A stretch of DNA of 15,181 nt. Origin: Eledone cirrhosa. Taxonomy: Eukaryota. This document shows, piece after piece, positions 11,022 through 14,798 of this stretch. Position numbers and translations under genes: made by a program. The stretch covers positions 1 to 15,181 of the forward strand of contig CAXHJY010001332.1 of NCBI GenBank assembly GCA_964016885.1. Reading direction: 5' to 3'. Position 1 is the stretch's first letter. The number at the start of each line of letters is the position of its first letter. Under the pieces are notes generated by a model. That model searched no databases. It saw only the letters and a list, made by a program, of their open reading frames with translations, and was not told the DNA's origin.

Positions 11022-11360
11022 AAATAGAGAGAGAGAGAAAGAGAGAGAGAGGGAGAGAGAAAAAGATAAAGAGATAGTGGTTGTGAGAGAGTAGATTGAA
11101 AGAGAGATATAGAGAGAGGGAGAGGAGACAGAAATAGGGAATGGAAGAAAGAGAGAGAGAGCTGGTGTTGTTGTTGTGTGTATATATATATGTATATACA
11201 TATATATGTGTGAGTGTGTGTGTGTCTATGACCAGTGTATATAGATCACAGACGCCCACATATATATATATATATATATATACATACAAACATTTATATA
11301 TATATAGACACATATATATATAATAATAATACTATTTATAGTTATGTATATACTATAAAC

Positions 11361-13627
11361 CAGGGGTCACCAAACTACGGCCCGCGGGCCGGATCAGGCC
11401 TGCGACGTCAGTTCATCAGGCCCGCTGACGGTACTTGCATTTGCGTGATAAAACGGATGGAACACGAGATGTTTCTAATTCAATGTCTTTTTCATTTTCA
11501 GATCCCGTTTTCTTCACCCTTCATTATAGCTACTAAGAAAAGAAAAGTGGACGCTGAGTGTCGCATTTTCAATGAAGAATGGGGAGTAAAGTACTTCTTT
11601 GTGGAAACAAAGGACCAGAAAGCTAGTTGCGTGGAATGCAGCGAAAGTGTTGCCGTTTTGAAAGAGTACAATCTTCGGCGTCACTATGAAGCAAAACATC
11701 TATCAACATATTCAAAGTTTTCTGGAAAGTTACGCTCTGAGAAATATGAGTCCATGAAACGTGGTTTAGAACTCAAAGAAATCTCTTCACAAGAATATTT
11801 GCTGAAAATGAATCTGTCACTAGTACAAGTTACAAAATAGTGCATAAGTTGGCAGAGCGAGGCAAACCGTTTACTGATGGCAACTTCATCAAAGAGTGTA
11901 TGATGGAAGCAGAAAATGACTTGTCCTGAGAAAGCCGATTTGTTTGGAAGTATCAGCCTTTCGGCAAGTTCAGTTGTGCGGAAAACAGAAGAACTTGGAG
12001 AGAACATAGTGCTACAGATACGCGAGAAAGCTAGGAACTTGTTGTGGTATTCTCTGGCGCTGGATGAGTCTACTGATTTCTCGAGTACGTCACAACTTCT
12101 CGTGTTCATTCGTGGTGTCAATTTGGACTTTCAGATAACGGAAGAGTTGGCATCCATTTGCTGCATGCATGGAACAACAACTGGAAAAGACATGTTCATG
12201 GAAGTGCAGAAAACTTTGAAAGACCTTCAGTGGAATCAGCTTCGAGGTGTTACAGTTGATGGAGGAAAAAACATGGCTGGAGTGAGCAAGGGTCTGGTCG
12301 GGCAGATTAGGACTCAGTTGGAAGATTTGCAAATTCCGGACGCTCTGTTCATACACCGCATCATACATCAGCAATCACTCTATGGGAAAGACTTGGATAT
12401 TTCTTGTGTACTGAAACCAGTCGTTTCTGCTGTGAACTTCATTCGGGGATATGCACTCAATCACCGTCAGTTCCAGGCTTTTCTTGAAGAAATTGATTCT
12501 GATTTCTGTGACTTGTCTTATCACACAGCAGTGAGGTGGCTCAGCTGCGGTAAAGTCCTGTTTCGTTTTTACAAGCTCCGAAACGAAATAGATGTTTTTC
12601 TCACTGAAAAAGATAGAGCTGATCCACAGCTGTCAGATCCTACCTGGCTGTCAAAGTTGTCATTTTTGGTCGACATCACATCCCACATGAATGAACTGAA
12701 CTTGAAACTTCCGGGAAAGGATAACGTCATCTGTGATCTCTACAGAATCATCAAAGGATTTCGGAGAAAGCTGTCATTGTTTGAAGCACAAGTGGAAGGA
12801 GAAAATTTCTCTCATTTTCACTGTTTCAAAGAGTTTTGCGCTACAATTGCTGAAGGTGTCAACCTCGATTTTCCTAAAAAGATTATTCGTGACTTGAAGA
12901 AGCATTTTTTGGAGAGATTTTCAGATCTCGACAGAATTGAGAGTGACATTCTTCTGTTCCAGAATCCGTTTGATTGTAACCTTGATGATGTGTCAGTTGA
13001 ACTACAGTTGGAGCTCATTGATTTGGAAGCAAATGACTTGTTGAAAGAGAAGCACAGAGAAGGAAAACTTGTTGAATTTTACCGCTTCTTACCTGATGTT
13101 GAGTTTCCGAAATTGCAGAAAATTACCGCAAGTATGGCATCATTGTTTGGAACAAGTTATGTCTGTGAGCAAACATTTTCAAAAATGAAGTATGTGAGGT
13201 CAACACATCGAACGAGATTGACTGATGAACATTTGAAAGCAATTCTCTTGATTGGATGCAGCAATTCCAAACCAAACATTGATGATATCTTGAAAGCCAA
13301 ACGTCAGTTTCAAAAATCTCACTAACCATTTTTGTTGCTTAGTTTGTAAGATTTGGATATGTGCACGCTAGGTTTGATGTAACTATATTTTTAATAACGT
13401 CGCCTTCTTTGATAACCTTTTAGTAAATAAATATGTTGTTTGTCTTTGTTTTTTGTGCATTGCACGCCACTTACCCATGATTAACATGGAATGCTAAACG
13501 TTGTGTTTCGTCTTTTTCCCCAGAGCTTTCTTTCTGGCTTGCAAGTATTGAACAGAATGATTATGCGGCCCGCGCTCGCCATTCTTTCAGTTATCCGGCC
13601 CACCTGAAAAAAGTTTGGTGACCCCTG
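11361..13627 (+). mobile_element. Full-length hAT DNA transposon, Buster/Charlie/SPIN group, 2267 bp
   Basis: Perfect 16-bp TIRs CAGGGGTCACCAAACT (11361-11376) and AGTTTGGTGACCCCTG (13612-13627). Perfect 8-bp TSD CTATAAAC (11353-11360 and 13628-13635) with central TA. Subterminal GGCCC motifs at both ends. Internal transposase. Confidence 0.98.
11526..13325 (+). pseudogene. hAT transposase (GTF2IRD2/SPIN-like), about 600 codons, disrupted
   Basis: N-terminal KKRKVD basic motif and BED-type finger (W..KYFF...CVEC...NLRRHYEAKH), ALDESTD, TVDGG, VRWLS, VCEQTFS and RTRLTD. The presumed start reads ATA at 11526. There are frameshifts near 11772 and 11924. The CxxH motif reads RIIH. Confidence 0.93.
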
Positions 13628-13707
13628 CTATAAACAACTATAAAAAGGAAAGGTCAGTAATTTCCTACTACCTTATTACCAGTAAGAGAAATAGCTCAAT
13701 GTAAGAA

Positions 13708-13821
13708 CTATTTATTTATTTATTTATTTATATATATATTTTATATATATATTTTATATATATATATTTTATATATATATTTTATATATTTATTTATTTA
13801 TTTATATATATATATATATAT
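13708..13821. repeat. AT-only low-complexity tract with (TATT)n and (TA)nTTT units
   Basis: Direct inspection. Confidence 0.9.
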
Positions 13822-13994
13822 AATTGTTTCTACTTTCGACACAAGGCCAGTAATTACCCAGTACATTACTGGTACTTTATTTTATCGACCTCGTAAGGAT
13901 GAAAGGCAAAGTTAACCTCGGCGGGATTTGAACTCAGATCGTAAAGGGACGTAACTATGCTGGAAAGCATGTCCGACCCTCTACCAATTCTGCC
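13822..13994 (-). mobile_element. SINE family A with internal deletion in the 3' part
   Basis: ttgtttctacttt...cacaaggccag...ccagtacattactggtactttattttatcgacc.cgtaaggatgaaagg.aaagttaacctcgg.g.gatttgaactcaga. Confidence 0.88.
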
Positions 13995-14036
13995 TATATA
14001 TAATAAATGTAATCTGAGTTTTTCGAATATTAATAC

Positions 14037-14213
14037 TTGTTTCTACTTTTGGCACAAGGCCAGCGATTATCCAGTACATTACTGGTACTTTATTTTATCG
14101 ACCCCGTAAGGATGAAAGGTAAAGTTAACCTCGGTGAGATTTGAACTCAGAATGGCAAAGGCTGTAACTCTATGCGTCAAAGCATGGCGGCCGACCCTCT
14201 ACCGATATGCCAA
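14037..14213 (-). mobile_element. SINE family A inserted in the left arm of the fold-back element
   Basis: Highly similar to 13822-13994. It interrupts sequence that is contiguous in the right arm. Confidence 0.88.
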
Positions 14214-14314
14214 CAACATTCGATTCGTTTGCAATTATGCAAACAAGTCTCAATTTTATAGCCATGTCAGTAGAATGAACCCTTCATTCTTGCTCTTGTG
14301 TTGGCATGCGAACA

Positions 14315-14364
14315 GAACTGCAGACACCAATGTTTCTGGGTATCACCCTTCATCAGTACAGCTC
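14315..14364 (-). ncRNA. Type I hammerhead ribozyme
   Basis: Minus strand gagctgta-CTGATGA-a gggt gat accc a-GAAA-ca ttgg tg-TC-tgcagttc. 8-bp stem I (two G-U), 4-bp stem II with A.A at its base, stem III ca/tg, GUC triplet at 14325-14323. Confidence 0.8.
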
Positions 14365-14707
14365 ACTGTCACCTGCCAAACTGTCAGAGCTAGTGAAAAT
14401 ATATGCTATTTTCAAAACTACACAGTGACTGATCGGCCTGATTTCCATATTATTAGACTGGCTGATCACTCAGATCTGCATATGAGCAGACTGGCCAGTC
14501 AGTTTCCTGTATACGAGCGATATTATGCAAACAAGCCACAAGAGCAAGAATGAAGTGTTCATTCTACTGACATGGCTATAAAATTGAGGCTAGTTTGCAT
14601 ATTTGCAAACGAATCGAATGTTATTATTAATATTCGAAAAACTCAGATTACATTTATTGTGTTCAGCCATGTAAAATAAAATTTTCTTTTATATGTATAT
14701 ATATATA

Positions 14708-14798
14708 CTAGCTGGCGCGTCCGGCTGGCGACCGGCTATGTATACCTGCCCCCACCACTGCAAAAATACTACACACCTTCCCGTGTCATATTGTCCTT

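What the first reader, a model, noticed from the sequence alone, without database searches (positions are those of the whole stretch)
14002..14658. Fold-back element enclosing a well-formed hammerhead ribozyme and a structured spacer
Seen: about 120-bp inverted arms (34/34 and 82/86 identity) flank a 236-bp spacer. It holds the best hammerhead of the window (minus strand, 8-bp stem I, GUC) and further stems: cactgt/acagtg, tgaaaata/tattttca, tgatcggcc/ggctgatca, ctgc/gcag. A 14-bp attatgcaaacaag occurs at 14234 and again at 14522. Removing the SINE gives a roughly 480-bp non-coding unit with no TSD. Known: MITEs have TIRs but no ribozyme, and retrozymes have direct repeats. Inference: a non-autonomous ribozyme-bearing element with inverted termini that fits neither class neatly, possibly Penelope- or DIRS-dependent, whose RNA would be a long rod with a self-cleaving loop.
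Basis: partly seen in the sequence, partly recalled or inferred. Interest (0 to 1): 0.8.

Follow-up and report, generated by a model that had tools for sequence, protein, structure and literature searches.

The report
Fold-back Penelope-type retroelement insertion
This hairpin-shaped stretch with a hammerhead ribozyme motif is real, but it is one truncated copy of a very common repeat plus a shorter inverted copy of the same end, likely laid down together by a Penelope-type jumping gene, which is a pattern already described and not a new kind of element.

Summary
The arms (34/34, 82/86), the 236-bp spacer, the hammerhead motif and the 14-bp repeat are all present. The interpretation mostly fails. 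Public reads show a high-copy family, but its members do not run from spacer into right arm: past 14522 they continue into another shared sequence (26 contigs, 4,843 reads), and other copies fold back at their own breakpoints. The family reads as one linear unit on the minus strand: 33-bp repeats, hammerhead, a structured 144-nt end, then (TA)n or an optional tail of about 35 bp. Depth falls about tenfold away from that end. This is the 'inverted 5'-truncated copy plus tail' anatomy published for Penelope-like elements (PMC8557442). The 14-mer looks like filler copied at the junction. The hammerhead is a dimer-type motif with an A·A mismatch at the base of stem II, and its cleavage is untested. 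Still open: whether the family is the end of a coding element or a non-coding unit of about 400 nt. The scan noted the same pattern before in shark-type genomes (e1-7789271, e1-7788964). The host is probably an octopus (recalled, not tested).

The parts
14002..14035 (-). Last 34 bp of the direct copy (3' end of the family, no tail), abutting a short (TA)n run
   Evidence: 34/34 match to 14625-14658; most loose ends at the equivalent place are (TA)n
14036..14214 (-). SINE-like repeat inserted later into the left arm; not part of the family
   Evidence: Aligns with two other window copies, mean column identity 81%; X6 contig 19 runs from 14339-14215 straight into 14623-14653 without it
14215..14300 (-). 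Arm portion of the direct copy, following the hammerhead in the inferred RNA sense
   Evidence: 82/86 match to 14537-14622; contigs span hammerhead and arm (table 8)
14315..14364 (-). Type I hammerhead motif: 8-bp stem I, 4-bp stem II with A·A at its base, 3-bp stem III inside a 10-nt self-complementary stretch; predicted cut 14323|14322
   Evidence: cleavage not tested
14364..14427 (-).
14427..14492 (-).
   Evidence: 23/33 identical in the window; 5 of 15 joint rows shown are net 33-base duplications here, the best with 3,431 reads from 24 starts and contigs in X1, X4 and X6
14493..14522 (-). 5'-most retained part of the direct copy; inferred truncation point at 14522
   Evidence: Loose ends behind 14522 with one shared consensus, agreement 0.85 in X1 and 0.93 in X12
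14522..14537 (.). Junction filler copied from mid-arm (14234-14249); inferred to be specific to this locus
   Evidence: 14-mer exact; 16 letters with the family's majority letter at 14248; X1 depth 0 at 14523 and 14529-14531
14537..14658 (+). Inverted, 5'-truncated second copy of the family's 3' end (right arm)
14658..14692 (+). Optional tail on the inverted copy, about 35 bp by inspection (shown by reads only to about 14680), then (TA)n; pairs back with the arm in the predicted RNA fold
   Evidence: At 14661: X1 depth 192,032 (104 contigs with the variant letter), 1 X4 contig, 2,398 X12 reads; 8-bp helix 14570-14577 with 14665-14672

Best explanation
The locus holds a 5'-truncated copy of a high-copy hammerhead-bearing repeat joined head-to-head to a shorter inverted copy of the same end, and was likely made in one insertion event by a Penelope-like reverse transcriptase-endonuclease. 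Shown: the family is colinear on the minus strand (33-bp repeats, hammerhead, 144 nt, fixed end, then (TA)n or a tail), the right junction is not shared by the family, and a SINE-like repeat splits the left arm. Inferred from published Penelope biology: the enzyme nicks AT-rich DNA on both strands and starts reverse transcription at two nearby internal sites of a structured RNA region downstream of the hammerhead. One cDNA (no tail) ran about 345 nt and the other (with tail) about 155 nt. Their truncated ends were joined with a 16-bp filler copied from the arm, and the SINE inserted later. The hammerhead would cut only as a dimer or with protein help, and this copy is likely inert. The rod-shaped RNA would be a by-product of read-through, not the transposing molecule.
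For:: loose ends behind 14522 (26 X1 contigs, 1 X4 contig, 4,843 X12 reads); fold-back joints with other breakpoints in X12 (14364>14603, 14452>14647, 14490>14554, and strand switches 14327/14437, 14405/14431, 14307/14478; 6 of 15 rows shown, 97-165 reads, 1-2 starts each); (TA)n behind 14657-14658 in all 4 runs (66, 1, 1 contigs, 757 reads); a tail in part of the copies; an uninterrupted arm after the hammerhead in X6 contig 19. X1 depth falls from the arm end (524-692 thousand) to 14500-14519 (61 thousand), Spearman -0.92 over 17 bins. Three of the 4 arm mismatches are private to one arm, so the arms were near-identical at insertion. Right arm plus tail folds at z -4.88, 0 of 200 shuffles, and 11 of 11 mapped variable places are unpaired or keep their pair. 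Stem III is self-complementary over 10 nt. Literature: PMC8557442 passages, PMC11167929 parts 1-2, PMC4209133 parts 1-2. A second, unrelated fold-back with a one-sided extension and a broken PLE-type frame lie in the same window.
Against: No coding sequence is linked to this family; only 30 letters upstream of 14522 were seen, so membership rests on anatomy. Summed contig depth is not copy number and the bins are not independent. The six fold-back joints come from one RAD run with 1-2 starts each, have no contig support, and could include ligation chimeras (14307 lies on the restriction site); 143 joint rows and 73 variant rows were not shown. Missing coverage of the filler in X1 proves nothing alone, and the runs may be another individual or species than the window (best share of words 0.52). 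One arm mismatch (14281/14556) is at a family-variable place, which could mean two different template molecules. The A between C11.1 and G12 is not in the published PLE consensus as described in the text I read.
Confidence: 0.83

Rival explanations
1. Same insertion mechanism, but the family is a non-coding head-to-tail unit of about 400 nt (non-LTR retrozyme type) in which the tail runs directly into the sequence upstream of 14522; it would be cut by paired hammerheads, possibly circularised, and copied in trans by a Penelope-like enzyme. This refines the best explanation and does not exclude it.
For: By eye, the last 6 letters of the 30-letter loose-end consensus behind 14522 are the reverse complement of window 14687-14692, where the tail gives way to (TA)n, and that consensus could pair with 14666-14681. 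Two single-locus joints look like direct tandems (14521>14263, 14489/14640). The family part folds better than chance (z -3.28 and -4.88). About 400 nt lies in the published monomer range (PMC7229834).
Against: The overlap is a 6-letter A/T-rich word and was not tested statistically. X4 contig 15 has 69 loose letters that were laid nowhere, although about 30 of them should match 14649-14680 under this model. The tenfold depth gradient argues against tandem arrays being the main form. This locus has only one hammerhead.
Confidence: 0.25
2. One reading: a family with fixed inverted termini and a fixed ribozyme spacer (MITE-like or DIRS-dependent) that moves as a 480-nt rod.
For: The locus would fold into a very stable rod (z -16.95); the arms end at the same base; other fold-back copies exist.
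Against: The junction at 14522-14537 is not seen in X1 contigs while 26 contigs leave for another sequence; other fold-backs have other breakpoints; depth is polar; the right end runs on into a family tail; the 14-mer matches mid-arm, unlike a DIRS internal complementary region (PMC8969392).
Confidence: 0.06
3. Two independent insertions of the same family in opposite orientation that happen to abut.
For: The family is abundant; one arm mismatch lies at a family-variable place.
Against: No host DNA or (TA)n lies between the copies, only a filler copied from the arm; 3 of 4 mismatches are private; the tail is on one side only, as published for single events; similar junctions recur at other loci.
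Confidence: 0.06
4. Assembly artefact (a read folded back on itself).
For: No public contig spans the whole stretch or the filler.
Against: The arms differ at 4 places, only one carries the SINE and only one carries the tail; a mirrored read would give identical arms.
Confidence: 0.02

Closest known systems
Complex insertions of endonuclease-positive Penelope-like elements (pLTR, adjacent inverted 5'-truncated copy, 30-40 bp tail; Craig et al. 2021, PMC8557442, passages read)
   Same: Inverted repeats flanking the unit, one-sided tail, 5' truncation, (TA)n target without a discernible TSD, hammerhead near the end.
   Different: No open frame or second pLTR is retained here, so the clade cannot be assigned; a 16-bp templated filler sits at the junction.
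Minimal PLE hammerheads (Cervera and De la Peña 2014, PMC4209133, parts 1-2 of 4 read)
   Same: Type I, extra nucleotide after A9, short palindromic helix III that suits dimer folding; that paper also reports pairs on opposite strands 100-700 bp apart.
   Different: An additional A lies between C11.1 and G12 (A·A mismatch), helix II has only 4 bp and helix I has 8 bp. A U·U mismatch at that place is described for axolotl HHR_Amex2 (PMC7229834, section 15).
Poseidon element of Anolis, PAc (Frangieh et al. 2024, PMC11167929, parts 1-2 of 4 read)
   Same: Ends defined by internal reverse-transcription start sites in a stem-loop downstream of the hammerhead; optional tail; AT-rich target.
   Different: In PAc the start site is 85-92 nt past the cut and inside the ORF; here the end is about 144 nt past the predicted cut and no ORF is established.
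Animal non-LTR retrozymes (PMC7229834, passages and section 15; bioRxiv 10.64898/2026.07.22.740005, parts 1-3 of 5)
   Same: Non-coding, type I hammerhead, self-paired RNA, proposed to derive from PLE pLTRs.
   Different: Defined by head-to-tail tandem units, which this locus lacks; inverted copies are not mentioned in PMC7229834 (0 occurrences of 'inverted').
MITEs and ITR-type DIRS elements (PMC8969392, passages)
   Same: Short non-coding unit with inverted ends; no TSD as in DIRS.
   Different: Ends and interior are not fixed across copies, depth is polar, and there is no terminal-complementary ICR.

Membership tests
Penelope-like element (EN+) | RT plus GIY-YIG open frame linked to the repeat | not testable with these tools
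   Only 30 letters upstream of 14522 were seen; no genome held. The PLE-type frame at 7947-8651 shares no DNA similarity with the finding.
Penelope-like element (EN+) | Type I hammerhead with palindromic helix III near the end | tested here: met
   self-duplex -7.0 kcal/mol, -8.8 with the family's majority letter at 14328
Penelope-like element (EN+) | 5' truncation with a fixed 3' end | tested here: met
   Depth gradient (with caveats); fixed end at 14657 and scattered inner breakpoints
Penelope-like element (EN+) | Inverted 5'-truncated copy adjacent to the 5' end | tested here: met
   This locus, plus 6 of 15 joint rows shown
Penelope-like element (EN+) | Optional 30-40 bp tail at one end | tested here: met
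   Family reads both stop at 14657 and run on to about 14680 (14681-14770 was skipped as repeat, so the full length of about 35 bp is by inspection)
Penelope-like element (EN+) | AT-rich or (TA)n target, TSD often not discernible | tested here: met
   (TA)n loose ends in 4 of 4 runs; both flanks of the locus
Penelope-like element (EN+) | Partial tandem forming a direct pLTR | tested here: inconclusive
   Absent at this locus; two single-start direct-type joints in X12
Non-LTR retrozyme | Two or more head-to-tail units, each with a hammerhead | tested here: not met
   One hammerhead at this locus, no tandem of that period; unresolved for the family
Non-LTR retrozyme | Closed non-coding monomer of 150-450 nt | tested here: inconclusive
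   6-letter overlap between tail end and upstream consensus, by eye
Non-LTR retrozyme | Linear and circular RNA expressed | not testable with these tools
   No RNA holder listed
MITE | Fixed terminal inverted repeats bounding all copies, with a TSD | tested here: not met
   Polar depth, variable junctions, right end continues into a family tail
DIRS (ITR type) | Internal complementary region matching the start of the left ITR and the end of the right ITR | tested here: not met
   The 14-mer matches mid-arm 14234-14247; definition
Hammerhead ribozyme | Conserved core and three helices | tested here: met
   no near-fixed family difference at core places among the 40 variant rows shown (73 not shown); A·A at the base of stem II; not called by Rfam
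Hammerhead ribozyme | Self-cleavage | not testable with these tools
   Needs an in vitro assay

The most novel reading that the evidence does not exclude
The family is a non-coding, roughly 400-nt head-to-tail or circular RNA (retrozyme type) with a variant A·A hammerhead and a conserved, structured enzyme-binding end, and it is dispersed at high copy number with the full Penelope integration signature (inverted copy, optional tail, (TA)n target). That would be direct genomic evidence that Penelope enzymes mobilise retrozymes in trans, and would give a minimal natural template for them.
Probability: 0.25. Interest if true: 0.5.

Novelty: new member of a known kind. Interest (0 to 1): 0.17.

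Why it matters
The fold-back itself is ordinary: Penelope-like elements leave such structures routinely. Two things have modest value. First, the structured 3' region with its optional tail, supported by family variation, is a natural candidate for the enzyme-binding and initiation element that PMC11167929 could only map roughly. Second, if the family closes into a 400-nt non-coding unit, it would tie retrozymes to Penelope enzymes by mechanism, a link that the papers I read argue from distribution and sequence similarity.

Tried and rejected
No whole genome is held, so no BLASTN copy count was possible. Exact-pattern scans found nothing: metagenome contigs 0 and 0, prokaryote genomes 0. Rfam gave no hammerhead at the finding. 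No RNA holder was listed; this says nothing on expression. Read starts and ends in X12 (14305, 14308, 14233, 14252, 14585) coincide with GCATGC and AATT sites, so they are library cuts and not biological ends; the same holds for the 21-letter limit of X12's loose ends at 14522. The 145-codon open frame on the plus strand (14116-14553) was rejected: no Atlas hit for its 102-residue part, and 13,313 of 18,280 X12 reads carry one extra base behind 14368, which shifts it. Four 14-letter motifs of the element had 0 hits in the supplement of PMC8557442 as held. The repeat library of PMC13282606 and the bioRxiv supplements were not seen, so the family may already be catalogued. Paper searches for octopus/hammerhead/Penelope, retrozyme/cephalopod and non-autonomous inverted PLEs listed no description of this family. 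For the neighbouring frame at 8235-8648, Pfam and two word-index protein searches were blank, and Pfam was also blank for 8 of 8 relatives. Look-ups of earlier findings by sequence, place and relatives gave nothing relevant. ARAGORN found no tRNA in the window, so the SINE's tRNA origin is not shown.

Full report
OBSERVATION. The hammerhead motif on the minus strand (14364-14315, predicted cut 14323|14322) is more than chance: 0 of 3000 shuffles hit my descriptor (written after seeing the motif), and the core pattern occurs 3 times in the window against 0.17 expected. It is not a textbook monomer. Rfam misses it, a rival hairpin is 4.9 kcal/mol more stable, stem II has an A·A mismatch at its base, and stem III is 3 bp inside a 10-nt self-complementary stretch, which suits folding as a dimer.

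FAMILY EVIDENCE. No genome was held. I therefore laid 4 of the 14 listed runs on 14180-14770 at 80% likeness: 8,169, 44 and 14 contigs from three organism labels and 45,744 RAD reads (a few of these lie on the SINE end at 14180-14214). Five results matter. (1) The right junction is not a family feature. Behind 14522, 26 X1 contigs, 1 X4 contig and 4,843 X12 reads continue into one other shared sequence. X1 depth is 0 at 14523 and 14529-14531, and the 154 X12 plus-strand reads laid there carry at least 14 other differences. (2) Fold-backs recur with other breakpoints: of 15 joint rows shown (143 not shown), 3 jump from the spacer into the right arm and 3 switch strand within the spacer. Each has 1-2 starts in one RAD run and no contig support, and one lies on the restriction site, so some may be chimeras. 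Of the other 9 rows, 5 are net 33-base duplications near 14462-14490, 2 look like direct tandems, and 2 are local rearrangements. (3) The outer end is fixed: (TA)n follows 14657-14658 in all four runs, while another part of the copies runs on past 14661. The tool skipped 14681-14770 as repeat, so the tail length of about 35 bp is by inspection. (4) Depth in X1 falls about tenfold from that end to 14500-14519 (Spearman -0.92, 17 bins); summed contig depth is not copy number, so I use only the trend. (5) X6 contig 19 runs from the hammerhead through the arm without the SINE, so the SINE came later.

ANATOMY. On the minus strand the family reads: unknown upstream part, variable 33-bp repeats, hairpins, hammerhead, about 144 nt, fixed end, optional tail. 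The locus is a direct copy cut at 14522, a 16-bp filler that matches mid-arm once the family's majority letter at 14248 is used (255,361 of 257,646 X1 depth), and an inverted copy cut at 14537 that carries the tail. Three of the four arm mismatches are private to one arm and the fourth is at a family-variable loop position. The right arm with its tail folds into a branched structure (z -4.88, 0 of 200 shuffles) closed by an 8-bp helix between arm and tail. I mapped 13 variant rows onto it, giving 11 distinct places: 7 are unpaired and 4 keep their pair. I left out three rows at or near the borders (14214, 14215, 14539), and 73 rows were not shown.

MECHANISM. Shown: the colinear family, the private junction, the optional tail, the (TA)n target, the polar depth. 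Inferred from published work: a Penelope-like RT-GIY-YIG protein nicks both strands of AT-rich DNA and starts cDNA at two nearby internal sites downstream of the hammerhead, the stretch between them being the tail (PMC11167929). Two cDNAs of unequal length are then joined at their truncated ends, here with a templated filler; that joining step is my inference from general knowledge of end joining. In the Anolis element the hammerhead needed protein and was dispensable for insertion in vitro, and minimal PLE hammerheads cut weakly and as dimers (PMC4209133). A single copy here is therefore likely inactive.

COMPARISON. [quoted passage not shown] The locus works like such an insertion and meets five of the seven PLE features I listed; one is inconclusive, and the linked protein frame could not be tested, so membership rests on anatomy. 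MITE and DIRS features were tested and not met. The tandem feature of retrozymes is not met at this locus. The window holds a second fold-back of the same build and a broken PLE-type frame, both unrelated in sequence to the finding. Penelope-like families are reported as abundant and recently active in Octopus vulgaris (PMC13282606, passages); that the host is an octopus is my recall from the SINE and not a tool result. Two earlier notes of this scan reached the same reading on shark-type DNA; I had recorded my reading before seeing them and did not check their DNA.

WHAT REMAINS OPEN. Only 30 letters upstream of 14522 were visible. Their last 6 letters are the reverse complement of 14687-14692, the apparent tail end, so the family may close into a non-coding unit of about 400 nt. 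The overlap is short, A/T-rich and judged by eye, and X4 contig 15 speaks slightly against it. I put this at 0.25. My paper searches listed no description of this family, but repeat libraries and bioRxiv supplements were not visible.

WHAT I READ. PMC8557442: passages and a supplement search. PMC11167929 and PMC4209133: parts 1-2 of 4. bioRxiv 10.64898/2026.07.22.740005: parts 1-3 of 5. PMC7229834: passages and section 15. PMC13282606 and PMC8969392: passages. All others: search listing only.

VERDICT. Observation confirmed, interpretation partly supported. New member of a known kind; interest 0.17.

Noticed in passing
window 7154-7361: A second fold-back of unrelated sequence: arms 7226-7292 / 7295-7361 match 62 of 67, with a hammerhead-like motif at +7301, a 72-bp extension on the left side only and (TA)n on both sides. 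Same anatomy as the finding.
   Followed up: partly
window 7947-8651 (+): Broken open frame (one stop) whose last 138 codons match 2,579 proteins at E up to 0.001; two long hits that I read carry a YRDD reverse-transcriptase motif upstream and a Cys/His-rich endonuclease-like end, the layout of Penelope-like proteins (motif labels recalled). Atlas lead to GIY-YIG, 11% of one cluster.
   Followed up: partly
window 11361-13627: DNA transposon relic with 16-bp perfect terminal inverted repeats and an 8-bp direct repeat on both sides (11353-11360, 13628-13635), read by eye; hAT-like by recall.
   Followed up: no
window 13814-13988, 14036-14214, 3376-3457, 3845-3986, 5199-5247, 9505-9585: Six copies or fragments of one SINE-like family; it resembles octopus tRNA-derived SINEs by recall only.
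   Followed up: partly
window 14272-14290 and mirror 14547-14565: Arm hairpin with a variable loop; family changes at 14279 and 14283 occur at similar shares (25% and 26% of X1 depth) and would swap an A-U for a G-C pair. Co-occurrence in the same copies was not shown.
   Followed up: partly
window 14337 and 14349: The extra A on each side of stem II seems to be family-wide: no majority difference at 14337 among the rows shown.
   Followed up: partly
window 2105-2175 (+): Degenerate hammerhead-like motif (Rfam HH9, 20 bits, E 0.7, below threshold; core pattern at 2121).
   Followed up: no
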